Source: Zootoca vivipara (taxonomy: Eukaryota). Taken from it: 64,000 nt of DNA. The stretch's first letter is position 1. Every line of letters starts with the position of its first letter. A program made the translations under genes and the position numbers. Below, piece after piece: positions 5,621 through 47,268 of the stretch. Location of the stretch: contig NC_083280.1 in NCBI RefSeq assembly GCF_963506605.1, positions 33,356,001 to 33,420,000 of the forward strand, read 5' to 3'. The notes under the pieces are model-generated. The model did not search any database. It had not been told where the DNA came from and saw nothing but the letters and a program-made list of their open reading frames with translations.

Positions 5621-5723
5621 AAATAAATAAAAAAATCCTTCCAGTAGCACCTTAGAGACCAACTAAGTTTGCCATAGGTATGAGCTTTCATATGCATGCA
5701 CACTTCTTCAGATCCATGTAACT
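5621..5723 (-). mobile_element. Penelope-like element, short 3'/pLTR fragment
   Basis: Same terminus as the other PLE copies (aaataaaaaaatccttccagtagcacc); 12-bp TSD ATTCTAAAATGA at 5609-5620 and 5724-5735. Confidence 0.8.
5678..5715 (-). ncRNA. Degenerate minimal hammerhead ribozyme motif (PLE)
   Basis: Minus: GGAT CTGAAGA A GTGTG CATG CATAT GAAA GCTC ATAC; G-U wobbles in stem II and a weakened stem I. Confidence 0.5.
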
Positions 5724-5859
5724 ATTCTAAAATGACTTAATGATGGCACCAAGAAGGCACTATGGTGAGTCAAAAGCAATGACATTTAGGTTACCTTCTT
5801 AATCTCCACTAGTTTCTTGCTTGAATTAGTGAGTTTAGCTGTGTCAAAATAGTAATGTT

Positions 5860-5958
5860 TAGGGAGGCTTTTAATGTTTAATAGATTACTGTGTTTTATT
5901 TTTCTGTTGGAAGCCGCCCAGAGTGGCTGGGGAAACCCAGCCAGATGGGCGGGGTATA

Positions 5959-5997
<39 letters not shown>

Positions 5998-6006
5998 TAA
6001 TAATAA
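5860..6006 (+). mobile_element. L2-type 3' end with (AAT)n tail
   Basis: gaagccgcccagagtggctggggaaacccagccagatgggcggggtataaat(aat)n. Confidence 0.7.
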
Positions 6007-6658
6007 TATATTGTTATTGTTATTGTTATTAATATTGTAAGGACAAAATAAATAACATGGTAATAAAGATATTTTTATCACACAAAGAGTGTAACTGATA
6101 TAGGAAGACAAAAAGGAATTAGGATGAAAGACACTAGTGATCAAATAATTTAATGTAGTGAACTTTACAGGGGGCAATAATGCAACATCTACAGATTAAG
6201 GAGGTTTGTACAAATAGCATAATTTCTACATACTCCTCAAAGTCTTGTTGCCTTATTGGCTAGCAAGTAAACAGCCCCAGTTGGCCAAAATGATTTCATT
6301 ACGTGGTAATTAAGGGCAAGTTCATTGTTATACTTCCCTGGTGGAGGCTCTTGAGAAACATTTATGCATAGCAATAATCCACACAGGGGTTGTAACATTT
6401 TAAATCTCATTTATTACAACGAAGATAGCCTTTACACATGGACAGACCCTCCACATCAGTTCTGTATATCCCTTAAAGCAGCTGCCATGGAAACTCTCTA
6501 GAAAATCAAGTAATTGTGGGACAATGCAAAAGAACTGAGCAAGCAGCTCTGAACTTAAACTGGGAAACTAATGTAACTCACTTGATGGCATGTTTGGTTG
6601 TATAAAACAGTAAACTACGTGACCACAGAAGCCATATACCTGTCCTATTTATATAAAG

Positions 6659-6797
6659 CAGGAGTGGGATACTTGTGGCTTTCCACATATTGTTGAGCCT
6701 ACGGAGATCATCAGCCCCAGCCAACATTGCAAGTGGGAAGGGATGGTGGTAGCTGAAGACCAACATCGGCTGGAAGGCCAAAGGTTCCCCACCCCTG
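6659..6797. mobile_element. Degenerate hAT MITE (URR1-like)
   Basis: CAGG...CCTG termini, imperfect palindrome, near-TSD ATATAAAG/ATATAAAA. Confidence 0.65.
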
Positions 6798-7130
6798 ATA
6801 TAAAACCTGGGATTCCAGTGCTAACATCAAAGTCAAACCACCCTCTTTCCCCACTTTATTGAAAGCCTCAAGAGTTTTAGTCCAAGACTTACAACTGGCA
6901 TTGAGGGCATGCTGAAGGGGAAATGAGTTTCAATGATGGATCCAGGAGGAATATGTGTAGGGGAGAAGTTCTGATTCTCTCAACTGCATGCCCCACTCCA
7001 TTTGATGTTAAAACTACGCACACACCATTTACATGTAAATGGAGAGGTGCAAACTTCATTGCCACCATCAAACCTGGAAGAGCCCTTGCTCACTGCCAAA
7101 AAGGGGGGAAATGAATATAAGACACATTAA

Positions 7131-7475
7131 AGGTGGCGCTGTGGTTAAACCACTGAGCCTAGGGCTTGCTGACCAGAAGGTCGGCGGTTCGAATCCCTGT
7201 GACGGGGTGAGCTCCCGTTGCTCGGTCCCAGCTCCTGCCAACCTAGCAGTTCGAAAGCACGTCAAAATGCAAGTAGATAAATAGGGACCGCTACAGCGGG
7301 AAGGTAAACGGCGTTTCCATGTCCTGCTCTGGTTTGCCAGAAGCGGCTTTGTCATGCTGGCCACATGACCTGGAAGCTATACGCCGGCTCCCTCGGCCAA
7401 TAATGCGAGATGAGCGCGCAACCCCAGAGTCGGTCACGACTGGACCTAATGGTCAGGGGTCCCTTTACCTTTACC
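7131..7475 (+). mobile_element. Sauria SINE, near full length
   Basis: tRNA-like head with B box GGTTCGAATCC, body ...gcaagtagataaatagg..., tail cctttacctttacc. Confidence 0.9.
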
Positions 7476-8621
7476 TAAAATATGTTTTATATAAGAATTA
7501 TATTCCATTCTATTTACCAACTACTGAATGCCTTTTATTCTTACAGGCCTTTATTTTATTTGGCAGACAATGTTTTAATTGTTGACACTACCTCTTTTTT
7601 TATTAAATAGCATACCCCAACTGCCTTGATTAAATCGGGAGATAACACAGCACAAAAAATGTGCAAGATGAGCTCATGCAAGATCATGGACCCTCAAACA
7701 CACATTTTTGGGCTCCATGATCTTACATGGGTCCCCACGTGGGATCACAGCTGGAAAGATGTGCATCCCAGTTTTCAAATAGGTGCTGTCAAATTTTTAA
7801 AAAGAAGAAGGTACATGATGGTACTTTTTCTTAAATAATATTTGTTCGCAATCTATAATAAAGCAGTTGGTTATTAAAAAGGTGGAGCTTCTCTGAAGGG
7901 ATCCTTTTCAGTATGGCATGTAAAAAGAACCACTGCAATTCAGAGGTGTCTTGTTTTTTAAAGCATTTTCTATGCCAAATTGTCTGCACAATTGGACTTC
8001 ACATTTATTTATTCTTTAGTTCTCAAAAGTGTGCAGTTTAGTATACATTCTGCCACACAGGATAAAAAGCTGTAGAATATGAACAGAAATGTTTTATCAC
8101 ATGGTTATCATTTGTCATCTTCAAGACTGCATGTTTCAAAAGTGGTTTCGAGCATTTATGATGCAATAGCTGACTTACTGCAGAAGACGTTAAGAGCTGA
8201 TTTGGAAGACAACACTGATTTCTAATGCCATCCCCAAAGGCTTCAGCAGGACAGTTAGCAACTCAAAAATAGCAGAAACCATGAACAAATGTGCAGTTTA
8301 GATAGGAGGAGGAGAAGCAAAAAGAGCTAATTCATCAATGACTAACAGCCAGGGTTACTTACCAGTAAACTCACTGCTGTGGAACAATACGTTTTATGTT
8401 TCACTATTTAACGTATTGCTGAACTACCTGTCCCTTAGTTTCTATGCCCACAGTCTTATACATGTAATACGTACTTTGCCCAAGAGACATCAGTGAGGTT
8501 CTTCTGCACAGAGCACATCAAGGGCTGCAACACCTCTTATCATACAAACTGTAACTTTCAGTAAATAAAATAAAAAAATTCCTTCAGTAGCACCTTAAAG
8601 ACCAACTAAGTTTTTATTTTG

Positions 8622-8659
8622 GTATGAGCTTTCGTGTGCATGCACACTTCTTCAGATAC
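8622..8659 (-). ncRNA. Minimal type-I hammerhead ribozyme motif (PLE)
   Basis: Minus: GTAT CTGAAGA A GTGTG CATG CACAC GAAA GC TC|ATAC. CUGANGA and GAAA core, stem I GUAU/AUAC, stem II GUGUG/CACAC, self-complementary AGCU in place of stem III. Confidence 0.7.
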
Positions 8660-9170
8660 AGTGAAATGGGAGTCCCCAGGCACTTATGTAGAGAAGGGGT
8701 GGGGAGGGGTGGGGATGGGGAGGGGGGATCACTCAGAAGGGTGGTGGAAATGGGTGATTGACTGACTGATAGCTGTTGATGACCGAAAACGACTGCAAAT
8801 GGTTTTGCATGAAAAAGCAAGGGTTGAGATGGCTGAAGATCGCTTATCATGTATAATGAGATAAGAACCCGATATCTCTGTTCAAACCAGGTCCCTCCAT
8901 GGTTTTGAGCTTGGTGATAAGTTGTAATTCAGCAACTTCTCTTTCCAGTCTATTTCTGAAATTCTTTTGTAGTAAGACAGCTACTTTGAGATCTTGTATA
9001 GAATGTCCTGGGAGATTGAAGTGTTCTCCTACTGGTTTTTCTGTCTTCTGGTTCCTGATGTCAGATTTATGTCCATTTATCCTTTGGCGTAGGGTTTGGC
9101 CTGTTTGTCCAATATAGAGAGCTGAAGGGCACTAGTAGCACCTTAAAGAACCAACTAAGTTTTTATTTTG

Positions 9171-9208
9171 GTATGAGCTTTCGTGTGCATGCACACTTCT
9201 TCGGATAC
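9171..9208 (-). ncRNA. Second hammerhead motif with core mutation (CUGAAGA to CCGAAGA)
   Basis: Identical to 8622-8659 except plus-strand tcgg instead of tcag. Confidence 0.55.
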
Positions 9209-11048
9209 AGTGAAATGGGAGTCCCCAGGCACTTATGTAGAGAAGGGGTGGGGAGGGGTGGGGATGGGGAGGGGGGATTACTCAGAAGGGTGGTGGAAAT
9301 GGGTGATTGACTGACTGATAGCTGTTGATGACGACTGCAAATGGTTTTGCATGAAAAAGCAAGGGTTGAGATGGCTGAAGATCGCTTATCATGTATAATG
9401 AGATAAGAATCCGATATCTCTGTTCAAACCAGTAAATAAAATATATTGTTTGCCTATGGCTTGGTTCAATATTCATATTTAATTCTCACATTTTTACACT
9501 ATCCTTCATCCCAAAGGATTCCAGGATATGGTATAATTCCACTAAATTTCAGAGGTTGGTATTCAGCTACGTTTCACAGAACTGTGTTGTTTTCACCGCC
9601 ATCACTACCATATGGTAGGCAGGACAATTCAAATTACTCAATAACTCAATTCAAATTGAGCAATGACAAAATGAGGCAAACAATATATTTTATTTACTGA
9701 GGGTTGCAGGGGAAATTGTGACTTTTAACACCTGCTATGAGGGGGGGGGGGGAATCACTGAACTGGTATACTTGACTACTCTTGATCTTATGCACAGATG
9801 CATACAAGAGCCACAACATGACCCTAAGAGATGCAATTAAATATTTGATTCATTGCATTGTATTTTAGTAACTACAGGAATCCAGAATGAGAACAAAATT
9901 GAACTTTATAGTGGGTGCATCTGTCCCAGCCTCATTTAATTTGACTTGCAAGGTACTAAACTAGGAACAACCAGAGAATAATAAATTGCATTCTGAATGA
10001 TAAAAATTTATGAAGTATACAAATTCAATTACAATAGCATTCAAACTATATCCAACGGAAAGAGTCATACCTCAATGCAGATGTTGTAAAATCTGACAGA
10101 TTTGTTGTTTTTAGGTTCCTCCTAGTGTTACAACTTTGCCTTGTGATACTTGCTTTTATACAACAGCATTTTGAGATGCTATTTTCATTGTTTTAAAACT
10201 TATTCAACTCATTTGTTACCTTCCTCAGTTTTCACCCTTAGATTACCTTTAAAATCCACAGAAATGTGCACAGCCTTGAACAGCTGATAAATTACCAACT
10301 AACCTTTCATAGATATAAGAGTATCACATACATATGGAAATGGTAAAGGCTCACTCAGGCTTACGTTGTAATTACGTGTACTTCTAATGTGAGATAAATA
10401 ATAAAGACCCTGCTAAATTCTGGCCTGATCAGAATTTATGCCAGAATCACATCTCAAATGGGACAAGCTGCAAGTCTGAAGAAGAACCAAGATGGGGCTA
10501 GTCAGCAGATACTGATAAATCTTCAATCCATAGTAGAACTTACTGCACAAGTGTAGGGACTTTACTAGACTTCACAGGATGCAATGAAGTCCTCTGCATG
10601 CATTGAGAGTAAGCAAATTGCATGGGCTGTATTGCTGAAGTTATTTCAATGACCTATCAGGGCCTTTGGGAAATATTTATTTATATAACTCCACCCATAT
10701 TTAGAGAAGAGGCCAGCTCCTGGCCCAGAGGATTTACTATCTATAATTTTACACAGGGGAGACTACAGAGGAAGGCAAGAATTGTTCCCCACCCCAGTTA
10801 CACATACGTACTTACATTTGGTTTCAGTAGGGGGACTGGCTGGACATTAAGGAGTGGTGGCTGGATACTGATGAGTGGGCACTGGAAGAAGTGGGATTGG
10901 AGACAGACTTGGAAGAAAGGATCAGTGATCTGGTGGAGCCTGTAACAGCCAGGAGATGAGACAGGAGAAGTTGCAGGATTGAAGAACAGGAGCAGGAGAA
11001 GGGAGAAATAGGTCAGGCTGCTGTAGAGTCATGGCAGGGCTTCTACAA

Positions 11049-11051
<3 letters not shown>

Positions 11052-11119
<68 letters not shown>
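11052..11119. repeat. (CTG)22 trinucleotide microsatellite
   Basis: Uninterrupted CTG run. Confidence 0.95.
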
Positions 11120-11121
<2 letters not shown>

Positions 11122-14100
11122 GATCTTTCCTGCTCCACTGTCTCCCAGGACCAAGCAAGAATTGAAGGAGGATTAGCCGAAGCAGGTTACAAGCAAACAC
11201 AGTCTTTGCCAGCTTGCATGGATAAGATACATAAACTGAGGCTGGGGGTGGGTCCTCTCTGTTGCTGCAACTGCCCCATCGGGTAGCTGAGACACATAGG
11301 ACTCTCAGGTTTTCCTAATCTGTAAGTGTACTTCTGGCAACAAAGAGTCCGCCCCATACTGGGAAGCAAGAATTATCTGATAAGATAGGAAAATGTAGAT
11401 GAAAAGAGAAGTCAGCCTCAGGAGTTAAGACTGCTCACTAGATGTTTGGGGATCAACCTTCTTCCTGCTGCAAATACCACAAACCCTCTAGTTTACATTT
11501 CTACCACCTAAGAGCTTTTTCTTTTTAGAGAACAGCAAGACAGACTGCTTTTCTTGTAAACTGACCAAATAGGCAGAAGATGTGGGGAAAGGATGGATTT
11601 TCTCATCAAGATGTCTCTCTGTGGTGTTGCTTTTTTATCATATTGCAAATGTTTTAGAAGAGAAAATCATTTGGATGAAGTCACTGGGAGAACCAGTGAG
11701 CAAATAATTCTGCACATTTGGTTCTCCTGAAACAAGGGTTTGGCAATGTAAGTCACAAGTCACCTTGCTTCTTGCAAGAATGGTAGCCTGTGTAATTTGT
11801 GCAATTAGTCCGCTATGTCCCTTGATTAATCATGCTGCTGCTAGATATCTAAGGTTATCATTATGAATTCCTACAGTTTATCGAACTTTTTTTATTCCCA
11901 ACTAAAACATACCTTGATGCAGTATAGACATAGTGTTTTTCAGAAGTGTAAATAGTTTGTGTTTAGGTTTAGTGACAGATGAGAAGCATATCAGTTACAA
12001 GTGGGCCTCCCATACTATATTGGGGGGAACCTTAGTGGACAGAAGCACTGACTTGCTATTACACTGCTTTAATAAAAAAAAACCCTAGTTCAAAACTCAT
12101 ATTTACTCACACTTCTGTAAAACAGGTCATACTAAATCACTTAATGACAGCCGTGATTTGTCATCAGAAAAAAGAATGAGATCAATATTCATTAATATGC
12201 AGTGGGTTACTAAGAAATAATCACATCTCTAGGCCCTACTGTCTAAAAAAGTTGAATGTTTCCTATTTTTCCATCAATATATGTGGGGGGGAAGCCACAC
12301 AGCTCTTTTAATATTTCTTTAAAATGTTTACTTTGATCAATGGCAAGTGTTGGTTGTAGGACTATAAATCAGAAGTGACATTTGCAAAAGCCTGTCTAGC
12401 TTATGACATATCGGACAACAATAAACATGATGTGTCAGCCTGATCTGCTTTATATTTAACACTACCAAAAAACATTTGCTCAGATATAGCCAGTGCAATC
12501 TGCTTTATCCTTTGTTGATAAATCAGTTCTACGCCTACTACAAACCACTACAGAGTGTGAGGTATAACAATACTCCAACATAGAAAAATATAACTGTACC
12601 TCAAGTTATAGCATTAGAAGATTTCAAACCCCAAAGAGCAGCCAAAAATGGGAATCTTCCGCCTTGATATTACTTTGTTATACAGATTTTGTTTTGACTT
12701 CTATATTAATAATTAAGGGATTCAAATGGAAAAATCAGATGGGGGTTGTTTGTTTGTTACTAGGTTATATATTTTTGTGTTTTTATATATTGTAAACTGC
12801 CCTGTGATCCTCACATGAAAAGTGGTATAGAAATTTAATAAATAAATAAAATGCCAAGTTTCCTTTTCTTCTTAAAAAGAAAGGTGACTCCTCATTAGTA
12901 CTCTCCTAAGGAGAACCCTGCAGATGGCTCAGTGGATATGCACATACTCTCATTTATAGTGCAATGTTGTAGTTTTTCCTCAATCTAGAATCGTTTGTGC
13001 TCATCAGTGTTAACATGTTGCTTTCAGTCTAGATTGATTTTAGATCCTGCTGTATACATGGGTGGCTTGGGTTCCATATACACATGTAAAAGCCCTCCCT
13101 TTGATTAGGGTATCCATGCTTTCGTCCCCTGCATATCTCAGGTGAATGAAGAAGAAAGAAGTGATTGTGTTCTTGGTATAGCCACCCACAACATCACTGT
13201 GCAGGTGTAGACACACACACCATTGTCAAGACCACCACCTACACCTGTTTTTGATCGGACACACTGCTGTGTAATGTAGAATCAATCTGCAATGAGCTTT
13301 CTCTTTGCCCGCCTGCCCCAGAATGAAACAAATTTTTCAATAACTCCTTTGTAATGATACAAAATATTTGATGTATCTAGATTGTGTGTGGACTATATAC
13401 AAAAAACATGTACTCCGTTTCCATTGGTTCTAGAAATGTCAGGTGACACGTCCAATTACCCCCCCCCAAAAAAAATCTGTACCTTCATCTGCTAAAAAAA
13501 AAAGGCACCTCACAAGCTCACATCTATTTTGGCTGTGTTCTGCCCAGGAATCATAACCTCCCTCTGCATTGTGTCTTTGCAGTGACACACTCAAATACAA
13601 ACTTAAATAATTGCTCTGATTCAAGTGGCAATGACACAGACGCTTAGAGGAGTGCTTCACTTTAAGAGGACAGGGGACCACAAGATGTAAAAGTGACCAA
13701 CAGAAACTACCACCTTTCATCACAGTATGGCAAGCATGCTATACTATCTGCCTACCTCAACTGGTGGTTAGGGAAGGTGGGACTGGGGGCTTTATGTGTT
13801 CTGTTCCTGTTGGTCTCAGACCAACTCCAGAGACTGCAAGACACCAGGCAGCGTTCACTTGAAACTAAGCCATGCAAGGCTGCTTCTTGCATGCTTTCCC
13901 TTTTCCATAGGCTTAAGGTGTGCTGCAAAGCTCCACAATGTCTCACATTGAAAAATTAGATTTTCCTCAATCAACAGGTGAGAATGTGATGCCAATTTAA
14001 GAATAACAGTTTTAAGCAAATACAAAAACAGAAGCAAGTCGGGAAATACACAATCCCCAGAGAGACTGTCGTTAAGTTCAAGACATACTATTACAGTAAC

Positions 14101-17530: not shown

Positions 17531-18506
17531 CTAGTGGATTTTAGCCCGTTTAAAAACGGGCGCTAGAGGAAGCGGCCTGCCGGGACTGGCTTGGCGGTGG
17601 CGGGTCTTCCCGCCACCACCAAGCCAGTTCGCAGCGGGGGCTTTTCGCCGTTTGCCTTCCCCTGGGGGAGGCAAACGGCGAAAAACCCCGCCGCGCCGCA
17701 ATTCGGCTCCGGGACTGGCTTGGCGGTGGCGGGTCTTCCCGCCACCGCCAAGCCAGTCCGCAGCGGGGGCTTTTCGCCGTTTGCCTTCCCCTGGGGGAGG
17801 CAAACGGCGAAAAACCTCGCCGCGCCGCAATTCGGCTCCGGGACTGGCTTGGCGGTGGCGGGTCTTCCCGCCACCGCCAAGCCAGTCCGCAGCGGGGGCT
17901 TTTCGCCGTTTGCCTTCCCCTGGGGGAGGCAAACGGCGAAAAACCCCGCCGCGCCGCAATTCGGCTCCGGGACTGGCTTGGCGGTGGCGGGTCTTCCCGC
18001 CACCGCCAAGCCAGTCCGCAGCGGGGGCTTTTCGCCGTTTGCCTTCCCTCGAGGAGGAGGCAAACGGCGAAAAACCCCGCCGCGCCGCAATTCGGCTCCG
18101 GGACTGGCTTGGCGGCGGCGGGAAAAAGGGGAGGAATTCCTCCCCTTCTTCCCGCCGCTGCCAAGCCAAAGCGGGCCTCCCTCCGCGCCCGCTGCCGCTT
18201 CGGCTTCCTCGGGTTCCCCGAGGAAGCGCCGTCCCATGCCGGAGGTGTGCGGCAAGGCTGCCGGGGGGGGGAGCGCTTCTCTCCCCCGCCGCCTCACCGC
18301 GCACCTCCAGCATGAGACTGGGCTTCGGAGCGGCGGTTGGCGGAGCGGCAGTTGGCTGTTCCCTGTGTCCCGAGAGCACGGGTCCAATCCCTGTGTCCCT
18401 GGTTGTCCCTCCGTCCAATCCCTGTGTCTCTGGGGGACATGCGCAGTACCCCAGGGACACACGGGACATCTGGACGCAGGGACAACATGGACATTATTAT
18501 ATAGGA
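17531..18506 (-). mobile_element. Non-autonomous Helitron (976 bp)
   Basis: Minus 5' end TCCTATATAATAA; 3' end CTAG preceded by hairpin GCCCGTTT/AAACGGGC (17544-17561); inserted between A and T with no TSD. Confidence 0.85.
17581..18165. repeat. GC-rich tandem array, 129-bp unit, ~4.5 copies, two hairpins per unit
   Basis: Unit starts at 17581, 17710, 17839, 17968 and 18099; 21-bp stem GACTGGCTTGGCGGTGGCGGG/CCCGCCACCGCCAAGCCAGTC and a second stem TTTTCGCCGTTTGCCT/AGGCAAACGGCGAAAA. Confidence 0.95.

Positions 18507-23773: not shown

Positions 23774-23774
<1 letters not shown>

Positions 23775-23821
<47 letters not shown>
23775..23821. repeat. (TG)n microsatellite
   Basis: Direct reading. Confidence 0.95.
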
Positions 23822-25734: not shown

Positions 25735-26135
25735 CATACCTGCCAAGTCTCCCGCTGATAAAAGTGGGATCATCAGCGGTGCAGCACCCGAAGTTGCGTA
25801 GAAGCAACTTCTGGGGCCGCTCTTCCCATGTGTGGGCACCAGAAATTGGGCAGAGCTGCACCGGAAGTCGCTTCTACGCAGGCCCGGAGGCCATCTTGGT
25901 GAAGGCCACCACCATGCGGCCACCACCAAGATGGCTGCCGGGCAGGCGTAGAAGCAACTTCCGGTGCCGCTCTGCCCAATTTCCGGTGCCCACACATGGG
26001 AAGAGCAGCACCCAAAATCCCTGGCAGGTAGGAAATCCAGGGGATTTCCAGGATTTTTCTCCATTCGGAAGAATAGCAGGAAACGGATTAAAATCCGGGG
26101 GTTTCCCGTGAAAAACAGGACACTTGGCAGCTAGG
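25735..26135. mobile_element. Non-autonomous hAT element with an internal ~200-bp palindrome
   Basis: TIR CATACCTGCCAAG/CTTGGCAGCTAGG; near-TSD ATCATATA/ATGATATA; inverted repeat ~25815-26010. Confidence 0.8.
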
Positions 26136-33720: not shown

Positions 33721-33777
33721 GATTCTCTGGGCATTCCATGCAACATGATCACCATGGGCTTTTCTACTTCCTGAGGA

Positions 33778-33837
33778 CAGGTAGGTAGCCGTGTTGGTCT
33801 GGGTCGAAGTAAAATAAAAAAAGGAATTTTTTTATTT
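33778..33837. mobile_element. Minimal 60-bp Penelope-like insertion (tail plus micro inverted repeat)
   Basis: caggtaggtagccgtgttggtctg is the reverse complement of the PLE tail at ~47333-47356; 13-bp TSD TACTTCCTGAGGA (33765-33777 and 33838-33850). Confidence 0.8.
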
Positions 33838-36800
33838 TACTTCCTGAGGAGTGAAGGATTATACCCAAATGGGAGCCACAGAAAGCCACAGGTTTTCCAT
33901 CCCTGCTCTAAAGCCAGTGGTGATTGAATGCCGAATGACTGTTGTCAGGGGGTGGGGAGGAAAACTCTGATATGAAAGGGAATATTATGGAATATTGTGT
34001 AAGAGGGCATGACTGGCTGGGACCCTGAACAGGAGCACCCACTTTCTGTGGCAGATCCCGCTTGTATTCCTATTATTTTAATGGTGCAAATAGGTACTGG
34101 GTAATCCACATAAAAACCAAACCAGTGCCCAACAAGTGAGAGGCAAATACATTTTTGCATTTCCGCAACCATTCTTTTAGGGCTCTATTTCAACAGTTGT
34201 AAAAAAATTAGGAAATTTTAAGGTGGGTGAAACGAGAATGAATTACTTCATGTCACTTTGGGCCAGCCCTATTGGGCACCTTGCAAATTGATTGTTAGCC
34301 TCCTGTTATGCATTTGCCTGTCTACCATGGTTACGATCTGTCAATTGGACTCAACTAATTATAGTGAACAAGTCTGTGACAAATAGCAAATTATCTCTTT
34401 CAGACTTCAAGCATTAACAGGAATGAATGACAGAAAAACACCACTCTAAAATAAGAACATGTTCTCTCCAAAACCACAACCAAATTGAAAAGCTACTGGG
34501 TCATTTTAGATAAACATTGGAGTTCACAGATTTGTATGCTATTGCAAGCAGCAAGAGACAAACATTTAGGATTATCACTTATTAATCTTGTCAGCTTTAT
34601 TTTGTGAATTTCTGACTGACAAGTAAATGTGTAGTGCTGAAGAAATACAAAATGGCAAAGCATACATTATATTATTCTGCTTTTAATTATGTCTTGTCTC
34701 TGTTACTTCAAGAGACAATATAGGGAACTGACAGACTTTGTCAGAATTGCCAACGCCCAACAGATTTTGAAGTTGGCTCAGTAACGCAGAGAAATATATC
34801 CAATAGTCTTCTGCATTTCTAATGGTACACTAGAAACAGAAATGCAAAGGTTTGTGTATCTAGTGCAGCAAACACCAAAACAGATTTTTAGTAACAGGAA
34901 TACAAAATGCAACAGATGTAACTCACTTAGATGTAACTCACCCCAACAGGCACTACTAAAGCATCCAAGACTGTTATCAGTTGGAAGAGAAGTCTTGTAG
35001 CTGTGGTCACAACTGTGTGTATGTTCCCATGTGATTCCACTTCCAAAGTTTGCTATCAGTTTGGAATTGACACCCAGCAACACACACACACTTGTGGTCA
35101 CTACCGTACTACAAGGCTTCTGTTCCAGACTACTGTAGCTGGAGTTCTGAAAAGCAGCACTCCCCTAAAGAGTGGAAGTATGATGCAGTCATGTTGCAGA
35201 AGGGAAGATAAACCTCTCGTGTCACGTGAGTATTTCTCTGTATTAAGCAGATTCCAGGTAAGGTAATCAGAGTGACTGACTGTGTGATGATTTAAACGAA
35301 GAGAGATGAAACAAACTCTTACATAAGCTATGATGTATTCTTGTTAAGGGTATTTGTTCAACTGGAGAATCTTACCTTTCAAAAGATTAGAAAAGGTAAA
35401 AAAGAAAAAAAAGGTGAGTTTGTTTCTATAAAGAAAGACTTAAATAATTAATACCTTCTAGCATCTGGGGGGGAGGGGAATGAAGGAAGGAAGGAAGGAA
35501 GAGGCTAAGGAGAAAGTGTGAGGTTTAGAGAAGAATGTGTGTCAATTGATAAATTATTCAGAATACAAAAAATATATAAAGCTGAGCACAAAAGTTGATA
35601 ACAGAAGGACAATGCATAACTTGATGTTGAAAACTCAAAGCTACTGTTCCAAAATGAACAAAACTATACACAGGGACTTCTTTTATTAAAAATGATTCTA
35701 AAGCCTTAGAATAAATTAAAATTTAATTGTTTATCAAAAAGATGTACTGAACAGAAACTGATTTCCACAGAGAAAGGGTGTTGTTTTTGGGAAGGGAGGG
35801 TTTGTATTTGAAACTAATCAACCAAGAGATGCTGCATTACAAAAGAAAAATGCAGCATAACATCTTACTCTACTGAAAGGAAGAAAAATCAAAACTGTAC
35901 TTCAAAAAAACAACCTGGACATCTTTATGATGCTAATTAAAATTGATTTGGCAAATGCAAGAGCATAGTTTGGGAGAATGGACTCTTTGTTCTTTTATTT
36001 AGTCTGCCTAACCTCCCAAAGCATTTAATTCTAATTAGATAGAACCAGAAAACTGAACTGGCAGGAAGAGTCATTGACATTTCATTAATGTCTGGTGTTC
36101 CATTAAGCTGTAGGAAAAACCCAAAGTAATAGCACTTAGTCCATACCTTCCTTGAACATTTAAATGAGCTATTAAATGCAGTTAAAGTGTTTTTGAAAAG
36201 GATGCCAAGTGGTAAAACTTCCATGATGCTTGTTCTAAACAATGTACATATATATTTCCCTATACAGTACGGAATACAACTGAGTATCACTATCTCAATA
36301 CCACAATAAACAGGAATTTGTGTCTGAACTCATCTTCAGAACACTTTGAATAAAAGCGAAATAGTACTAAAATTTGAAGACCTAAATACTTCTATACTAT
36401 TGATAAGGAATCATCATGCAAGACCTAATTGAATTTAACAAGTTTGCTTCATATATTTCTAGGCACCTAATCCAAGAGCAAACCTCACGATAGCTCTATA
36501 TTAAAAACATAGAATGCATTCTAAATCCTTGCTTATTTCCCCTCATCCAAGAGAAGTAATAGTGTTATTCCCCAGTTCCCACAACCCTCAAACTCTGCTT
36601 TACAGTGCAATTTCTTCTTGTAAGTCTCTACTGTGTTCAGCGCGGCTTATTTTCATCATTCATCTTGTAGATACTATTTGGGAGATGCTACAGAAAATAA
36701 AATGTACTCTGGTACCCATAAGAGAAACAATACTGTACAGTATTAGTAATCAATACTAGAGGCTTAGGTATCAGAGATGCCTATCAGTCAATGGACACAT

Positions 36801-38739: not shown

Positions 38740-39094
38740 AAGTTGGGTATGTTTAGCCTGGTAAAGAGAAGAGTGCAAGGAGATATGATAGCCATTTTCA
38801 ATTAACTAGAGGGCTGTCACATGGGGAGGATGCAGCAAGCCTGTTTTCTACTGCTCCGGAAGCTAGGACCAGAACCAATGGATTTAAGTTACAAAAAAGG
38901 AGATTTCGCCTAAACAGTTGTGACAGTTGAATAGACTCCCATGAGATGTGGTGGACTCTCTTTCCTTGGAAGTTTTTAAGCAGAGGTTGGATACAGCCAA
39001 CTGTCATGTATGTTCTAGTTGATATTTCTGCATTGCAGGGGGTTGGAGTAGATTACTCTCGGTGTCCCTTCCAGTTTACAGTTCTATGATTCTA
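38740..39094 (+). mobile_element. CR1 LINE 3' fragment
   Basis: LGMFSL.KRR..GDMIA motif and TTCTATGATTCTA tail. Confidence 0.85.
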
Positions 39095-39277
39095 TTTAGA
39101 ATTCCCCAAAATTTCACAAGTCTGTAAAGCAGCACAGTGAACTGCTATTTAGAGGAAGAGGTGTATGAATTGAAATATCAGAAGCTTCACTGCACATGCA
39201 GAATTCACCATTCACTTTTCATGCCAATGATGGGGTCAACAGTTGTAGAAAGTAGGAGGTGGCAGATGAGCAGAACA

Positions 39278-39367
39278 CATAGCTGCCAAGTTTTCCCTTT
39301 TCTCGCGAGGAAGCCTATTCAGCATAAGGGAAAATCCCTTTAAAAAAGGGATAACTTGGCAGCTATG
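39278..39367. mobile_element. 90-bp hAT MITE
   Basis: Perfect TIR CATAGCTGCCAAGTT/AACTTGGCAGCTATG; 8-bp TSD GCAGAACA. Confidence 0.9.
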
Positions 39368-40150
39368 GCAGAACAGGGATGAAACTTTGCCCCAAGTAAT
39401 TAGTTGCATGGCATTTGAGTAAAGTCTTTGAAAGCTCCCCCCCCCAAAAAAAACCCTCAATATATTTCTGCCTGCATTTGATGTAAGCAGTCCTGCTATG
39501 ATTAACATGATTTCTCAGCACCTGCCTTAAAAAAAAAGTCACTCATATGCAAAGCTTTGTTGATTAAGCAATCAGTTAATATTGAATGTCACTAAAGTCT
39601 CATTATCTCACCAAGTTGTCAAGACTGGATCAATTCCCATCCATCATCCTGAAAGACTACACTAAGCTTCACATCCAGATTCATGCAACCGATACTGTAA
39701 TTAAGCAGCAGCCTTAATGATCCAATCAGACAAGCCAATACTGCAAGCAAGTCTAAACCCAATTCTTCAGGTCTAGCTTCATGAAAAGTTGAGCAACTGT
39801 AAATAAATATGGCATATCAGACATGAAAATAACATTCAGTGCCACAGAGATACACTCTGCTTCTATATACAGTTGTCCAAAAATCATCACCATAATGAAA
39901 AAATCCAACACAGGTCATCAACATCATTAATTGAATGAATAAATATGTTTCTATCCTGCCCTTCATCTAAAAGGCACCAAGGGTGACAAACATCAAAATG
40001 TTATTACAATACAATTTAAAATAAAATAAAAATATTTTTAAAACAACTGAAAACCATCTAAAGACACCTAAATCAACCATAAAGCTCACAATTACTAATT
40101 TCAAGATTTCCATTACCAGTATCTTTCAGCCATTAAATGCCTGGGTAAAC

Positions 40151-40153
<3 letters not shown>

Positions 40154-40197
<44 letters not shown>
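40154..40197. repeat. (AT)n microsatellite
   Basis: Direct reading. Confidence 0.95.
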
Positions 40198-40200
<3 letters not shown>

Positions 40201-40927
40201 GGTCGGTACTGAGGGAGACAGACACACCACAACAGAGCAAGCATTTGATGGAGACCCACTGCTGAGAAGCCCCTGTCATTTTTAATTTTTTTGATATTTT
40301 ATTGAAGAATTTTCAATCATAAAGGGAAGCTGTGGTAGTGCTCACCAAATATCCTACCAAGAATGGCTGCTGCAGAAGAAAATATCCCTGCATCATGAGC
40401 CATGTATGTGGAAGCCTAACTAGCCCTCTGAATCCAGTGCCACATCTAATGCACCAGACACCTTTAATTCTGCCATTAATTTTCCCTCGAGACTGCTGGT
40501 TTCCCTCCAATAATCATCAACTTCTGCCAAGTACACAGAGAGACCTTTTATATATGATCCAGTTGATTAAGATGCCTATGTGACTGCAACAACTCTAAGG
40601 CAGGAAACTTAATTGGTGTGATTCATGATGGTTACTTTTGTTTTGATTAACCTACAATTGCCCCCAAAGATAACCTCTTTGCAAATTCAGGTCACCACAC
40701 ATAATAAGCACCTTCTCTATAAAGCATCTCTCCCTTCCTCTATTAGTCCTCTTTGAGGTTTTTTTTTGTTTCCTCTTCAGATCACATATTTTGCCTTTGC
40801 TTAGCCCTCTTTGTTAAACATTTCCTTCTAGCCCTCCTGAATAAAAATTCTTCCTGCAGCAGCCACTTTTTCCATTGGTATTTTTCCATACTAAAACTTT
40901 AGTGCTAAACAAACAGAAAAACAGCTA

Positions 40928-41160
40928 CCCGTTCTCTGAAAATAAGACACCGTCTTATATTTATTTTTCCTCAAAAAACCCCCACTATGGTTTATTTTCA
41001 GGGGGTGTCTTATTTTTTCCTCCTCCTCCTGCCGCGGCCGGCATTGCTGCTGCACCTATCACTATGTCTTATTTTTGGGGTATGGCTTATATTCCTTGAA
41101 TACTTAAAAATCCTGCTACGTCTTATTTAATGGCTACGTCTTATTTTCGGAGAAACAGGG
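40928..41160. mobile_element. Tc1/mariner (pogo/Tc2-like) MITE
   Basis: Imperfect TIR CCCGTTCTCTGAAAATAAGAC/GTCTTATTTTCGGAGAAACAGGG flanked by TA; internal GTCTTAT repeats. Confidence 0.8.
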
Positions 41161-41214
41161 TACTATCAATAGCTTGGCATAGTATTTATAGCAGACCCAT
41201 TTCTTCATCCACAT

Positions 41215-41378
41215 CAGGGCCGGCTCTAGGTAGCCCCCCGGTGGCGCGGTGCGCCAGGGCGCCGGGCCGGTAGGCAGGGCGCCGTGCGGAAACCATGCTG
41301 CGTCCTGCGAGGGCGGGGGCGCCAGAGTGATTTCCCCCCCTCAGCATCAGGGCACGCGACCTGCTCGAGACTGCCCTG
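41215..41378. mobile_element. GC-rich hAT MITE, 164 bp
   Basis: CAGGGC...GCCCTG termini; perfect 8-bp TSD ATCCACAT. Confidence 0.85.
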
Positions 41379-42414
41379 ATCCACATCAGAATTTCAGAAA
41401 GCCATGGGACATTGGGGCAAGTACAGACTAATCCACTCCAGGACTTTCCGTGGGCAAGCAGGACAAGGGTATTCGGCAAGGAAGAACATTAGTATCCATG
41501 TAACTGTATGCAAAGCAGAAACTCTAAAGTAAAATTATACCAAGAACAGTGCAAATCCAGATTCTTATTTCCAAGAGCCACAGGATTCTGAACACAAATT
41601 TGTTGTGTTTGTGTGAATAGATTGCTGCAGAAACAGAGCTTAGTGGGGAGTGAGTGAGGTGGTGGATGTGGTGGCAATATTTGTGGAGGCTTTTAAGTAC
41701 AACTGCATCTGTTGAACAGTTAGTATAGCTTGATAAGAGCAGAAGTGTGATTTTAACATGTATCCATTGTTAGGTAATTGGTAAAATAATAATAATCATA
41801 ATACTATGATACTTCTGAAACACATTATTTGCATGGCTTGCTGCAACGCTAAGCAGCCAAACTGGAGAATGAATTTTTAGTGAAGAGGTACCGGGTAAGT
41901 GAGGAAAGGGGTATGTTGCTATGAAAACACCAACAACAGTTACATGAACAGTTTCATTTGATATATTTTCTCATGTCCTTGTAGCCCAGCAGGAAACAAG
42001 GGCAGGGTGACACAGAGAACCAGGATTAAACGAGACTACCAAACTTGAACATAGTGACAAAGCACATGTAGCACGAACTGCAATTCACAAACAAAACCAT
42101 GGTTTCAGATTCTGGTTCATTGACATCAAACAAGCTTTGGTTAGTGAGCCTAGCCAGGTTCAGACATACAAATATAGCCTAGAATTAAACCAAACAAACT
42201 ATGATTTAGCTTTACATCTATGTGCAAGAACTCAGTAAACACCAGCATTCTCCACACTGGGCCAACCAATTACACCACACTGGTGAAAAGCAGGTGAAAT
42301 TTACAAATAGCTATTGTAATTTTACTTCACAGGATTGGGCAGGATTCTGCTTTCTATAAATGAGACCACGAGAGAATAGTGAGAGGGAGGGAGGGAATCT
42401 ACCAGGTGTATAAC

Positions 42415-42546
42415 CAGTGCTTTTTTCAGGGACTACTCAATGATACGTAGCACCAGCACCTCTTTTTGTTATTAAAAAGTGTGACACTTAGTGTAACAAT
42501 TTCATGGTGAGTACCAATACCTATTTTTCTAGAGAAAAAGCATTAT
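42415..42546. mobile_element. Degenerate hAT-type MITE
   Basis: CAGTGCTTTTTT...AAAAAGCATTA termini. Confidence 0.5.
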
Positions 42547-43992
42547 GTATCTTATGTTAAATCTTAAAAACAAAGACAACTTAATTAACTGTAGGGAGGA
42601 CACCAGTTTTAAGAAATCAGTAGCTTGACTCATTTTCAATTATTTTTCATATTTTTTGCTTCCCCAAAGCACTTTAGAAACTGAATTGTACCCAGTGAAT
42701 CTTTCATGTGAGCTGTAGAACTTAAACATTATGCAGATCATACATAAGAGTTAAAGGAATAAGATTAGCTGCTGAGCATGACCTGCTGTGTATGTTTTTG
42801 CTTTGCAGCAGGGAGCATGGAGACCATCTCAGCAGAAATAATCTGCTTGTCCAGGAATATTGCTAGGAAAATATAGTCTGTTTTAATGAAGTGAAAGAAT
42901 TGCTGGGCACAAACATGGAAAGAGAACGAGAGCAAACAAAACCTAAGCTGAGGAAAGTCAACATGGCTTCTGAAAAAGGAAGGCATTGTCAAATACTAAA
43001 AATTCTTTTTGAGTACATGAACAAATGTGCAGACAAAAAAAAATATGTTCTGCAATGTTAGGTATACATTTATTTTTGGTACAGAAAGTATTGATCTAAT
43101 TTGTAGAGTTTTTTTCAATTCTAATCAATTCAAGAAAGTTCTGGAAGCTTCTCTGTGTGATACAAACTGGAAGTTTCCAGCTGACAAGCAAGATTCTATT
43201 CTGCCTAGAAACAAGCAGAAGGTTCCTGAGGTTTTGGTTAGTCCTTCAGAGAAGCTGAACAGCCAGTTCAAACTGGTTCTGTCATCTCTTTCTGTCAAGG
43301 TCATGCTGACTATAAGAACAGGCCAGAAAGAGCCAGGGTTTCTGTCTGTCTGTCTTTTCTTCTGGTGTGGTGGTTTGTATATAGAATGATTATGTTAAGG
43401 TTTTTATTGTAAGTAAAATAGAGCTACTTTCATCTTAAAGGAGACATCCAGAAAAGCTATTTTGAGTGGTATAGGGCTTGTTAATATCTAGCCTGCTTAA
43501 CAGGATGCTCTGTCCTTAGAACAGGGGTGTCAAACTCAAATTCATCGGGGGCCGCATCAGCAGTTTGGTCACCCTCAAAGGGCCGGTTGTATCTGTAGGA
43601 CTATGTGTCCACTCTTTATTATCATAAATTATTGTCACTGCATTCAATTATTACTGTTTTTTGTAATAATGTAAGTAATAACTAGCGCTGAAAGCAGAAA
43701 CATAGTCAGAATAATGGCAAGTAGATATTCAAATGTACAATTATTGTACAATTTATTGAAAAAAGATTTTTGGTAACTGCACTGGGTGGTGGAGGCTCGC
43801 TAGGGTTTCATGCAGGAGCTTTGCAGAGCTACTGGTACCTGGAGATGCTGGGGTCCTTCTGCATGCAGGACAGATGTTCTGCCAGTGAGCCACCACCCTT
43901 CACCAAAGGGACTGGCTGAGGTTGACTCACTGGAGCTGCTCTCCTGGTTCCAGGGTTTAAGGGCCAGAAGTATAAAGCAGCATCCTATGTTT

Positions 43993-44132
43993 NNNNNNNN
44001 NNNNNNNNNNNNNNNNNNNNNNNNNNNNNNNNNNNNNNNNNNNNNNNNNNNNNNNNNNNNNNNNNNNNNNNNNNNNNNNNNNNNNNNNNNNNNNNNNNNN
44101 NNNNNNNNNNNNNNNNNNNNNNNNNNNNNNNN
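43993..44132. other. Assembly gap (N run)
   Basis: 140 N. Confidence 1.
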
Positions 44133-44458
44133 TAGGAAATAAGGAAGGGAATAAAGAAGGAAAGAAAAAGAAAGAGGGAGAAAAGACAGAAAGGGAGAAA
44201 GAAGGAAGGAAGTAGAGAGGGAAAGAAAGAATGAGAATGAGGGAGAGGAAGAAAGATGGGAAGGACGGAAGGAAGGAAGGAAGGAAGAAAGAAAAGAGGG
44301 AGCAGGAGGGAGAGAGGAAGGAAAGAGGGGAGAGAAGGAAAGAAAAAGAAAGAGGGAGAGAAGACGGAAAGGGAGAAAGAAGGAAGGAAGTAGAAAGAAA
44401 GAATAAGAATGAGGGAGAGGAAGAAAGATGGGAAGGACGGAAGGACGGAAGGAAGGAA

Positions 44459-44489
<31 letters not shown>

Positions 44490-44670
44490 GGAAAAGAGGG
44501 AGCAGGAGAGAGAGAGGAAGGAAAGAGGGGAGAGAAAGAAGAGTAGGAAAGAAGGAAGGGAATAAAGAAGGAAAGAAAAAGAAAGACGGAGAGAAGACAG
44601 AGATAAAGAAGGAAGGAAGGAGAGGGAAAGAAAGAATAAGAACGAGAGAGAGGAAGAAAGAAAGGGAAGG
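44133..44670. repeat. Purine-rich low-complexity tract with ~180-200 bp higher-order repeats
   Basis: Almost entirely A/G; repeated gagggagaggaagaaagatgggaaggacggaagg blocks. Confidence 0.9.
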
Positions 44671-46663
44671 GGGGTGTCGCCGCCTTGATTCAGCGCCAGA
44701 AAAGAGCGCGAAGGGACCCAGGGGCAAAAAGCATTTCCCGTGCAGCGTGAGGCAGCGGGTGTCCGTTTTAGCAGACGTGGGTAAAGCCTCAGAGTTGCAC
44801 GTCCATGAGGCTGAGCCGCTGCTGAGCTCACGTTCATGAGGCTGAGCCGCGGCAGGAGGAGGAGGAGGTGAGGCAAGAAGAGGAGGAGGCGGCTTGTCGG
44901 GTCGGTGCCCGGCAGCACCGTATGGAGAGTGCCGAGCCTCTGGGACGCAGCAGTGCTCTGTAGCACTTTGAATCCTCCTCCTCCTCCACGCGGCGCTGCT
45001 GGGTGCTTTGTCTGTGCTTGTGCTTCAGCAGCAGCAGCAGCCGTTTCCAGGCGCCGAGCCATGGCAGGAGGAGGCTCGGGACTCTCCGTGCGGTGCTGCT
45101 GGGCGCTGACCCGGCAAGCTGCCTCTTCCTTCTCCTGCTGTGGCTCGTGGCACTCCACGCAGCGCTGCTCCTGCCGCCTTTCTACCACCCCAGGCCCCAG
45201 CTGTTTGTCGGCGCTTTGTCAGCACGGCGCTTCAGCAGCAAGGTCCCGCTGCTGGGTCCCGCTGGCTGGGGCGCTTGGCGGGCCACATGACGAGGTCTGG
45301 CGGGCCGGATTTGGCCCCCGGGCCTTGAGTTTGACACCCATGCCTTAGAAGGCTGCTGTGACAATTCTGAAAGACACTTTAAGCTGCTCGTCTCAATAGA
45401 AACTCGGGTGCCATTTCTTTGGCAGGTCTGAATGAGTTGTACATTATCTGGTATAGTATTATGAGATCAGTTTCGGCTTCTAAGGCCTAGTGATGCAGGC
45501 AGGGTGCTTGTGGCCATTCAGTAAACTACATGCTCCATTGACCCTTACCCATCGTGTCTGATTTGAGTGAGCTAGCAGCAGTTGACTGGGTGTTTGTTTA
45601 ACCCAGTGATGGTGAACCTATGACTTCTTAGCCTAGAGCAGCAGCACTTCACAGGACAGGAGGATGGATTTGATTCTACCCTTTATTCCTAAATATTCCT
45701 TTATTCCTTCTTGAAAATGACTGGCTGGCTGTGTATTGTTTTGTTATTTGTGGCTAGTGGGTAAATTCTGTTTAACCAACTTTTCAAAAGAAGCAGCCCT
45801 TGCTGGTTTACTATTTAGACATTCTGGGTGCCCACACATTTACTTACTTATTTAAAATATTTATAACTGCACGTCCATAAAAATGCAACAAGGCAGTATA
45901 CACCATTCAAAAGTTAAACAGTAAAAACATTAGAAGACGATACAAGTGTTTTGACAACAATATGTTAAAGAATCAGGGATGCTTCTCTTTGCTGTTTCTG
46001 AACAAAGGGGCACCATGTTTTCCTCTACAACCATCTAGGATCTCATCTGTTATCCATGACTTCCTGGATAAAATATCTAATTGTTTGGAGATTTAGCACC
46101 CTGGAGTGAATTTCATCAAATCCTGCTGATTCAAATTCATCCAAATAGGTTTAGCCTTTCCTGGTCTGCAGTCCTTGTTAAAATTATATTAACCATCTGG
46201 TCACAATTCATCCTTTTCAAATGATAAAACAAGATGAACACAGGCATTCATTCATCTATTGTAAGCAAGGTCATATTCAAGGTATATCTAGGGTACTGGT
46301 TTATTTCAATTTTGTAAGCTAATATAAGATTTTTATCAAGAATACATGATTGTTTGGTGACATGCTAGCATAAATACACATTTTGTATGGTCTGTTTTTC
46401 CTCAATTAAAATATTTTGCATATTCCTTTGCATTCCTTTTTATTTTATAATTTTGTGACATGAGGGTACATGTATCATTTCATAGAATGTTATTATATTT
46501 TATGACTGGTTTTAATTGTTGTTAGCCACTTTCTAGTGATTTATCACCACTACAAAGGTGGGATCTAAAATGCATATATACATTACACATATAAACACAG
46601 AGCAAGGTAAAATAAAAAAATTCCTTCAGTAGCACCTTAAAGACCAACTAAGTTTATATTTTG

Positions 46664-46701
46664 GTATGAGCTTTCATGTGCATGCACACTTCTTCAGATA
46701 C
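46664..46701 (-). ncRNA. Minimal hammerhead ribozyme motif (PLE left arm)
   Basis: Minus: GTATCTGAAGAAGTGTGCATGCACATGAAAGCTCATAC. Confidence 0.65.
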
Positions 46702-47230
46702 ACTAGAAACAGAAGTGTCAGACCCTATATATATACAGAGGGTGGTGGGGGTGGGTGGGTGGGAATGGGAGATGGGCTGATGGGAGTGGTAAACCTGTAG
46801 ATGGATGTTAATGGCTGCTGATGGCTGCAATTAGTCCTGGGCTGAGGTGCTAAAGAAAGCTTGATCATGCATAATGAGATAAGAATCCGATGTCTCTATT
46901 CATCCCAGGTGCTTCCATGGTTTTAAGCTTGGTAATGATTTCCAATTCAGCAACTTCCCTTTCCAGTCTGTTCCTGAAATTTCTCTGTAATAAAACAGCT
47001 GCTTTGAGATCTTGTATAGAATGTCCTGGGAGATTGAAGTGTTCTCCTACTGGTTTTTCAGTCTTATGGTTCCTGATGTCAGATTTATGTCCATTTATCC
47101 TTTGGCGTAGGGTTTGGCCTGTTTGTCCAATATAGAGAGCTGAAGGGCACCGTTGGCAATCATTCCCATTCCCACCCACCCCCACCACCCTCTGTATATA
47201 TATATAGGGTCTGACACTTCTGTTTCCAGT

Positions 47231-47268
47231 GTATCTGAAGAAGTGTGCATGCACACGAAAGCTCATAC
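47231..47268 (+). ncRNA. Minimal hammerhead ribozyme motif (PLE right arm)
   Basis: Plus: GTATCTGAAGAAGTGTGCATGCACACGAAAGCTCATAC. Confidence 0.7.

What the first reader, a model, noticed from the sequence alone, without database searches (positions are those of the whole stretch)
5678..47268. Minimal hammerhead ribozyme motifs carried by Penelope-like elements, four of five in sense with the host pre-mRNA
Seen: the 38-nt motif GTAT-CTGAAGA-A-GTGTG CATG CACAC-GAAA-GC-TC|ATAC (or close variants) occurs at 5678(-), 8622(-), 9171(-), 46664(-) and 47231(+), always in the PLE terminal repeat. It has the CUGANGA and GAAA core, a 4-bp stem I, a 5-bp stem II, one extra A before stem II, and only the self-complementary AGCU in place of stem III. 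Established: PLE pLTRs encode minimal type-I hammerheads whose palindromic stem III favours cleavage as dimers. Inference: the four minus-strand copies would be transcribed within the long intron of the minus-strand gene and could cut the nascent RNA, or pair with PLE transcripts in trans.
Basis: partly seen in the sequence, partly recalled or inferred. Interest (0 to 1): 0.7.

Follow-up and report, generated by a model that had tools for sequence, protein, structure and literature searches.

The report
Penelope hammerhead stubs in calsyntenin-2 intron
These five tiny ribozyme motifs are pieces of three dead insertions of a jumping gene that has left about 25,000 such motifs in this lizard genome, their orientation in the gene is likely chance, and the start points of sister copies show that the ribozyme likely sits at the capped front of the jumping gene's own RNA, which is likely copied uncut.

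Summary
The five motifs are real and lie in intron 1 (~121 kb) of minus-strand calsyntenin-2. They are minimal type-I hammerheads of a Neptune-type Penelope-like element, a known class; 24,503 genomic copies share the core. The 'four of five in sense' claim carries no weight. The five belong to three insertions, one an inverted pair that forces one copy per strand. Only one sense copy (8622) is intact; 46664 is predicted to be locked in a 143-bp hairpin. Across the whole intron, intact copies are 1 sense versus 3 antisense. No pile of copy ends or RNA read ends marks the cut site (1.8% of 20,319 copies break there). Instead, 27.6% of 18,599 copies break just before the hammerhead's first base, 31 nt behind a TATA-like box, and 68 of the first 100 carry a G there (14 of 100 at a control site). 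The ribozyme therefore likely begins at +1 of a capped RNA that is reverse-transcribed uncut. I did not find this in print, but this scan noted it before on other genomes. Cutting of the host pre-mRNA is unsupported and was not directly testable.

The parts
56167..56230 (-). Calsyntenin-2 coding exon 1 (signal peptide); intron 1 begins at 56166 and runs ~121 kb to the left, beyond the window start
   Evidence: Translation is identical to the N-terminus of P0016, named calsyntenin-2 by its source; exon 2 in L007:5055-5177; GTAAGT donor
5625..5724 (-). Insertion 1: older pLTR stub (~86% to young copies) plus an 8-nt inverted tail piece; 12-bp TSD
5678..5715 (-). Hammerhead copy, degenerate (stem I U>G; two C>U in stem II including C11.1)
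8563..9432 (-). Insertion 2: partial tandem (short ORF end + pLTR, then GIY-YIG C-terminus + pLTR); 8563-9133 is 99% identical to the intact element in L050; ~14-bp TSD
8622..8659 (-). Hammerhead copy, intact; the only intact sense copy; predicted cut between 8626 and 8625; 8659 is the inferred element start site
8683..8690 (-). TATA-like box (TACATAAG) starting 31 nt before the hammerhead's first base
9171..9208 (-). Hammerhead copy with U4>C core change; tandem partner 549 nt upstream of 8622
33777..33843 (.). Insertion 5: tail-only inverted stub of the same family, no hammerhead; 12-bp TSD
46609..47359 (.). Insertion 3: head-to-head inverted pair (minus arm with GIY-YIG C-terminus + pLTR; plus arm pLTR + tail); 143-nt arms, 94% complementary; 12-bp TSD
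46664..46701 (-). Hammerhead copy with C11.1>U; predicted fully base-paired with its antisense arm in the host pre-mRNA
46865..47158 (-). C-terminal GIY-YIG endonuclease fragment
   Evidence: Pfam PF01541 E=2.4e-4, 21.8 bits, just under the 22.6 cut-off; 82% DNA identity to L050
47231..47268 (+). Hammerhead copy, intact, antisense to calsyntenin-2
47324..47359 (+). ~35-nt tail between the two 3'-end sites of the family
   Evidence: loose read ends at 47319 and 47359
51009..51188 (.). Insertion 4: near-perfect fold-back of two pLTR 3' halves joined inside the stem II palindrome; lacks CUGAAGA; 13-bp TSD

Best explanation
The five motifs are minimal type-I hammerhead sequences left by three insertions of an abundant Neptune-type Penelope-like retrotransposon in calsyntenin-2 intron 1, where they are likely inert passengers; in the active element the hammerhead likely forms the first 38 nt of a capped RNA that is likely reverse-transcribed uncut. 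Shown: identity, copy number, insertion anatomy, a sharp pile of copy 5' ends at the hammerhead's first base with a G excess in front, a TATA-like box at fixed spacing, and no pile at the cut site. Inferred: (1) Pol II starts at the first base of stem I, from the pLTR of an upstream copy; (2) the element protein nicks both target strands and primes at two internal sites ~35 nt apart, giving head-to-head pairs with one tailed arm; (3) short cDNAs run off the cap and add a C opposite it; (4) the ribozyme cuts only when helped by the element protein or a dimer partner, which would remove a capped 34-nt leader and act on the element's own RNA, not on host introns.
For: Intact 901-aa RT + GIY-YIG ORF with a C-x4-C-x2-C linker in L050, 99% identical to window 8563-9133. 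Nested genome counts: 24,503 copies from C3, 18,599 from the first base, 10,706 from -3, 9,127 from -7. 5,134 of 18,599 lack the T at -1; the first 100 listed have G68/A17/C15 there, against G14/A25/C61 just before C3 and G38/A38/C24 at U16.1 (hand counts; background G share 0.285). Only 2 of the 56 G-type rows inspected are an untruncated variant, and 5 show a TSD plus exactly one extra G. An extra G marks capped full-length L1 insertions (PMC11702581 passage). In 46 of 47 untruncated copies picked for a TATA-like word, that word lies at -31 to -24 although the spacer differs between subfamilies. 38 of 42 head-to-head pairs have exactly one tailed arm, matching the two RT start sites of anole PAc. 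At the cut site, 366 of 20,319 copies lack C17, and 70 of the first 100 are C>T. RNA depth shows no step and no listed pile of ends there in 3 of 3 runs.
Against: The start site is inferred from DNA copies only. No capped 5' ends were measured, and the element itself is almost unexpressed in the three RNA runs (depth <=14 past the tail). 7 G-type rows have the G inside the TSD and many others are fold-back junctions, so the G is not always demonstrably untemplated. The control positions are diluted by point mutations. The TATA count used a regex that preselected TATA-like words. The sample shows no compensatory change in stem II, so the fold rests on the known motif and not on covariation. Protein-assisted cleavage was shown for a Poseidon-clade element, not this clade. 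All 3 antisense copies in the intron are intact against 1 of 5 sense copies (Fisher p=0.14), which leans, not significantly, towards selection against intact sense copies. In two of three runs pLTR reads are strongly lopsided by strand.
Confidence: 0.78

Rival explanations
1. One reading: the sense copies cut nascent calsyntenin-2 RNA, in cis (8622 with 9171 as a dimer through AGCU) or in trans with element transcripts.
For: The copies are inside intron 1 on the transcribed strand. 8622 and 9171 are 549 nt apart, and in a dimer the intact core of 8622 could in principle cut the intact site of 9171 (inference). 4 of 5 sense copies are defective against 0 of 3 antisense (p=0.14). Retrozymes are under-represented in Xenopus introns (bioRxiv 10.64898/2026.07.22.740005 passage).
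Against: Three insertions, not five events; p=0.19 at best. Stem I pairing probability is 0.00 for 8622 in pre-mRNA context, and 46664 is predicted to be locked in a long hairpin. The 14-bp stem II duplex (-28.0 kcal/mol) is predicted to out-compete the AGCU dimer (-14.9). Monomers are inactive and dimers weak; the anole ribozyme needs its protein. Hundreds of host-transcript reads in each orientation span the cut site with no step. The genome tolerates 17,230 exact 34-mers.
Confidence: 0.07
2. The ribozyme cuts tandem precursor RNA into unit-length or circular templates for reverse transcription (Cervera and de la Pena model).
For: Proposed in PMC4209133. Tandem arrays exist here, e.g. four 598-nt units in L045. 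The intact element in L050 begins 2-4 nt before the cut site. 2 overlapping fold-back pairs at the cut site appear among the first 100 rows.
Against: 1.8% of copies break at the cut site against 27.6% just before the first base; 0 of 135 aligned pieces start at the cut site. Catalytic mutants do not change PAc insertion in vitro.
Confidence: 0.12
3. The motif is kept for a role other than cleavage: a downstream promoter element, a protein-binding hairpin, or an RNA dimerisation signal through the perfect 14-nt stem II palindrome.
For: It lies at +1 to +38 of the inferred start. The predicted two-strand minimum is the 14-bp duplex, -30.6 kcal/mol. No covariation. Naiad PLEs thrive without hammerheads (PMC8557442).
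Against: Inside the motif the recurring subfamily-type change is at N7 (A103/C10/T3), and position 17 varies C/U, both positions that the hammerhead core leaves free (tolerance recalled). The anole relative does cleave, and its C3G/G8C double mutant partly rescues.
Confidence: 0.22

Closest known systems
[quoted passage not shown]
   Same: Type-I layout, 4-bp helix I, extra nucleotide between 9 and 10.1, G10.1-C11.1, palindromic 15.2-16.2, thousands of dispersed single copies, close pairs on opposite strands; reptiles (turtle, snakes) already listed
   Different: Helix II is 5 bp with a self-complementary 4-nt loop (a perfect 14-nt palindrome) rather than the 7-8 bp of Schistosoma; sequence is very uniform here; the motif likely starts at +1 of the RNA
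PAc, Poseidon element of Anolis carolinensis (Frangieh et al. 2024, PMC11167929; parts 1-2 of 4 read; supplement 2 was image-only, the .gbk file unreadable)
   Same: Squamate EN+ PLE, hammerhead at the pLTR-ORF junction, two 3'-end sites bounding a tail, no RNA-seq ends at the cut site
   Different: This element has the CX2-5CxxC linker (Neptune/Nematis type), and its long ORF's first ATG lies ~100 nt after the ribozyme rather than inside it; sequences were not compared directly
Neptune-type EN+ Penelope-like elements (Craig et al. 2021, PMC8557442; passages and section 15 read)
   Same: Single RT + C-terminal GIY-YIG ORF, Zn-finger-like linker, 5'-truncated tandem and inverted copies, tail at one end only
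   Different: No phylogeny was built, so Neptune versus Nematis rests on the motif and the host group
Drosophila virilis Penelope promoter (Schostak et al. 2008, PMC2377424; passages read)
   Same: Start site inside the pLTR, with the hammerhead in the 5' leader
   Different: Reported as TATA-less with an intron 46 nt after the start and the ribozyme behind the intron; here a TATA-like box, no sign of an intron, and the ribozyme at the start itself

Membership tests
Minimal type-I hammerhead (min-HHR) | CUGANGA and GAAA core, NUH site | tested here: met
   4 of 5 copies; 9171 has U4>C
Minimal type-I hammerhead (min-HHR) | Extra nucleotide between 9 and 10.1; G10.1-C11.1 pair | tested here: met
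   Extra A in 5 of 5; G-C pair in 3 of 5; features
Minimal type-I hammerhead (min-HHR) | Short helix I, helix II hairpin, palindromic 15.2-16.2 in place of helix III | tested here: met
   Isolated motif folds stems I and II in 4 of 5 copies; AGCU in 5 of 5
Minimal type-I hammerhead (min-HHR) | Compensatory changes in the stems | tested here: inconclusive
   None among 116 mostly young copies selected by near-exact match
Minimal type-I hammerhead (min-HHR) | Self-cleavage at NUH, as a dimer or with protein | not testable with these tools
   Only indirect negatives: no pile of DNA or RNA ends at the site
Rfam hammerhead families | Match to a curated covariance model | tested here: not met
   No hammerhead family among 57 matches at E<=5
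EN+ Penelope-like element | Single ORF with RT and C-terminal GIY-YIG | tested here: met
   L050, 901 aa: RVT_1 E=4.5e-12, GIY-YIG E=5.9e-5
EN+ Penelope-like element | 5'-truncated tandem or inverted copies, pLTR, 30-40-bp tail at one end | tested here: met
   Window insertions 2-4; 38 of 42 pairs have one tailed arm
Neptune clade | CX2-5CxxC linker between RT and EN | tested here: met
   Residues 761-769 of the L050 protein; feature
Neptune clade | RT phylogeny groups with Neptune | not tested
   No tree built
Intronic ribozyme acting on a host pre-mRNA | Sense bias, an active monomer fold, cut ends in host RNA | tested here: not met
   No significant bias and stem I probability 0.00 in context; host RNA ends could not be tested because the gene had no reads

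The most novel reading that the evidence does not exclude
The Penelope hammerhead is a self-decapping switch: it is the first 38 nt of the capped element RNA, and binding of the element's own protein lets it clip off the capped 34-nt leader, shutting translation down, while uncut capped RNA serves as the reverse-transcription template. Thousands of extra-G stubs in this genome are the fossil record of cap run-off.
Probability: 0.3. Interest if true: 0.65.

Novelty: new member of a known kind. Interest (0 to 1): 0.27.

Why it matters
The finding as given is an ordinary member of a class described in 2014, and the host-gene angle has no support. What is useful is the genome-wide record: the function of PLE hammerheads is called unclear in PMC8557442. 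A very abundant, young family with an intact ORF, a ribozyme at the inferred +1 and a measurable cap signature argues against the model in which cut RNA is the template. It makes the decapping or autoregulation idea directly testable, and ~17,000 identical copies give the power for a real intron-orientation test once gene annotation is at hand.

Tried and rejected
Rfam scan: no hammerhead match. PDB and Pfam searches of the exon 2 peptide: nothing; the homolog search named it. No indexed RNA holder was listed. Splice-acceptor explanation of the 5'-end pile: rejected, because one major subfamily has CACT and no AG before the motif, and truncated copies are preceded by their own TSD or inverted arm, not by a shared exon. 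The piles at -7/-8 are alignment artefacts of subfamily indels and were not counted. Subfamily variation as the cause of the drop between the first base and -3: 5 of 18 inspected loci were such variants, 13 of 18 true ends. No count further upstream than -7 was obtained. A genome-wide orientation test was not possible without gene annotation. Luense et al. 2017 was not available; it is known here only through a review passage (PMC6765202). Literature searches listed no paper placing a PLE hammerhead at a capped start site; only listings and the passages cited were seen, and unseen supplements of PMC11167929 (Fig. S2, File S1) may bear on this.
Full report
Observation. The 38-nt motif is present at all five stated places, with none expected by chance. 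Only 8622(-) and 47231(+) match the consensus. 9171 has U4>C, 46664 has C11.1>U, and 5678 has one stem I and two stem II changes. Rfam has no model that matches it. The isolated motif folds stems I and II as described in 4 of 5 copies.

What carries it. The copies belong to three insertions with target-site duplications: a 100-nt older stub (5625-5724), a partial tandem (8563-9432, holding 8622 and 9171) and a head-to-head inverted pair (46609-47359, holding 46664 and 47231). Two more insertions lack a full core: a fold-back joined inside the stem II palindrome (51009-51188) and a tail-only stub (33777-33843). An intact element elsewhere in the genome (L050) has a 901-aa ORF with RT and C-terminal GIY-YIG and a C-x4-C-x2-C linker, the Neptune/Nematis mark (PMC8557442 passages). 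Window 8563-9133 is 99% identical to it. The 1.44-Gb genome holds 17,230 exact 34-mers, 8,570 forward and 8,660 reverse, and 24,503 copies of the shorter core. These are lower bounds.

Host gene. A minus-strand exon 65 kb left of the window encodes a peptide that is 100% identical to calsyntenin-2 of several squamates. Window 56167-56230 encodes a signal peptide identical to the N-terminus of a lacertid calsyntenin-2 (P0016).

The orientation claim. Four of five is p=0.19 one-sided if the copies were independent, and they are not: one insertion gives two copies on one strand, another gives one per strand by its structure. The whole intron was fetched. It holds 8 near-complete motifs, 5 sense and 3 antisense; 1 of 5 sense and 3 of 3 antisense are intact (Fisher p=0.14). 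That lean is the only hint of selection against intact sense copies and is not significant. In pre-mRNA context, stem I of 8622 has pairing probability 0.00, and 46664 is fully paired with its own antisense arm. Published activity is low: no cleavage as a monomer and weak cleavage as a dimer (PMC4209133, parts 1-2 read). The anole element's ribozyme cleaves only when its protein is added, and no RNA-seq reads ended at its cut site (PMC11167929, parts 1-2 read). Here, 1,928-6,147 reads per run lay on one pLTR unit, 84-92% of them running on into unrelated host sequence. Depth shows no step across the cut site in either orientation, and no pile of ends is listed there. Steady-state mRNA selects for uncut molecules, so this is weak evidence. 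The strand ratio just past the ribozyme was about 4:1, 2:1 and 1:1 in the three runs, with strandedness not on record.

Where copies end. 3' ends fall at two sites: 61 of 128 longer pieces at the tail end, 58 in the U-rich stretch ~35 nt earlier and 9 elsewhere. 38 of 42 head-to-head pairs have exactly one tailed arm. This matches the known tail and the two RT start sites and two-strand nicking of PAc. 5' ends do not fall at the cut site: 366 of 20,319 copies lack C17, 70 of the first 100 being C>T, and 142 lack the neighbouring U16.1. They fall at the first base of stem I. Loss per position is 6.7% from C3 back to the first base, 27.6% at -1, 10.8% to -3 and 3.9% to -7. 13 of 18 inspected loci from that drop are true ends. 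RNA reads from embedded copies show the same edge as loose ends with mixed flanks. The base in front is G in 68 of the first 100 listed, against 14 of 100 just before C3 and 38 of 100 at U16.1; these are hand counts of listed rows. Of 56 G-type rows inspected, 2 are an untruncated variant, 5 have a TSD plus exactly one extra G, 7 have the G inside the TSD, and the rest have longer extras, fold-backs or no resolved TSD. An extra G is the cap signature of full-length L1 insertions (PMC11702581 passage). A TATA-like word lies at -31 to -24 in 46 of 47 untruncated copies that carry one, across spacers that differ between subfamilies.

Mechanism. Shown: the element, its insertion anatomy, the end distributions, the G excess and the box spacing. 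Inferred: transcription starts at the hammerhead's first base; cDNAs primed just downstream run off the cap of an uncut RNA; two primings give the inverted pairs; cleavage, if it occurs, needs the element protein or a partner and would remove the cap. The recurring subfamily-type change inside the motif is at N7 (A103/C10/T3 of 116), consistent with selection on the core in active masters, but no stem covariation was seen, and G12 changes in 11 of 116 at a CpG. Stem II with its loop is a perfect 14-nt palindrome; the predicted 14-bp two-strand duplex (-28.0 kcal/mol) is far more stable than the AGCU dimer thought to be active (-14.9). This keeps a non-cleaving dimerisation role open.

Novelty. 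The motif class, its presence in reptiles and the insertion structures are published. Searches listed no paper placing the ribozyme at a capped start site; D. virilis Penelope has a TATA-less start upstream of an intron (PMC2377424 passages). I had reached the start-site reading before looking, and then found five unreviewed notes of this scan reporting the same cap run-off pattern in other genomes; they are not independent support. Verdict: a real, ordinary member of a known kind, with an unsupported host-gene inference and a useful side result. Interest 0.27.

Noticed in passing
L045:4320-6741 (G000:C1 ~2,777,300-2,779,750): Four head-to-tail 598-nt units of an internally deleted element (ORF start joined to the endonuclease end), each with an intact hammerhead: a retrozyme-like tandem derived from this family.
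   Followed up: partly
L050:3290-8220: Full-length element with an intact 901-aa ORF plus a 1.9-kb inverted partial copy; its 5' end lies 2-4 nt before the ribozyme cut site.
   Followed up: partly
window 8613-8618 and 9162-9167 (minus strand): AATAAA directly after the hammerhead, followed by U/GU-rich sequence, in one subfamily; in sense orientation this could cause premature polyadenylation of the host RNA, a simpler route to interference than the ribozyme.
   Followed up: no
window 51009-51188: Near-perfect 73-bp fold-back with zero spacer, centred on the stem II palindrome; several sister insertions also join their arms inside stem II.
   Followed up: partly
window 9133 and 47150-47158: The endonuclease-bearing arms of two independent insertions of different subfamilies break within ~8 nt of the same place, next to a 7-nt match to the pLTR antisense; a possible template-switch hot spot.
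   Followed up: no
window 8640-8608 (minus strand): The ATG in loop II opens an 11-codon upstream ORF; the long ORF's first ATG lies ~100 nt after the ribozyme.
   Followed up: no
window 11050-11128: Long (CTG)n/(CAG)n tract in calsyntenin-2 intron 1 inside an exon-like stretch with a GTAAGT donor at ~10815 on the minus strand.
   Followed up: no
window 17580-18122: GC-rich 129-nt tandem repeat, about four units, each with an internal hairpin; similar sequence in L003.
   Followed up: no
window 25813-26012: 95-nt-arm inverted repeat, MITE-like.
   Followed up: no
window 60913-61962: 349-codon open frame of a LINE reverse transcriptase C-terminus, CR1-like by recall.
   Followed up: no
window 44700-45350: CpG-rich stretch that looks like an island but is a high-copy repeat by DNA depth.
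   Followed up: partly
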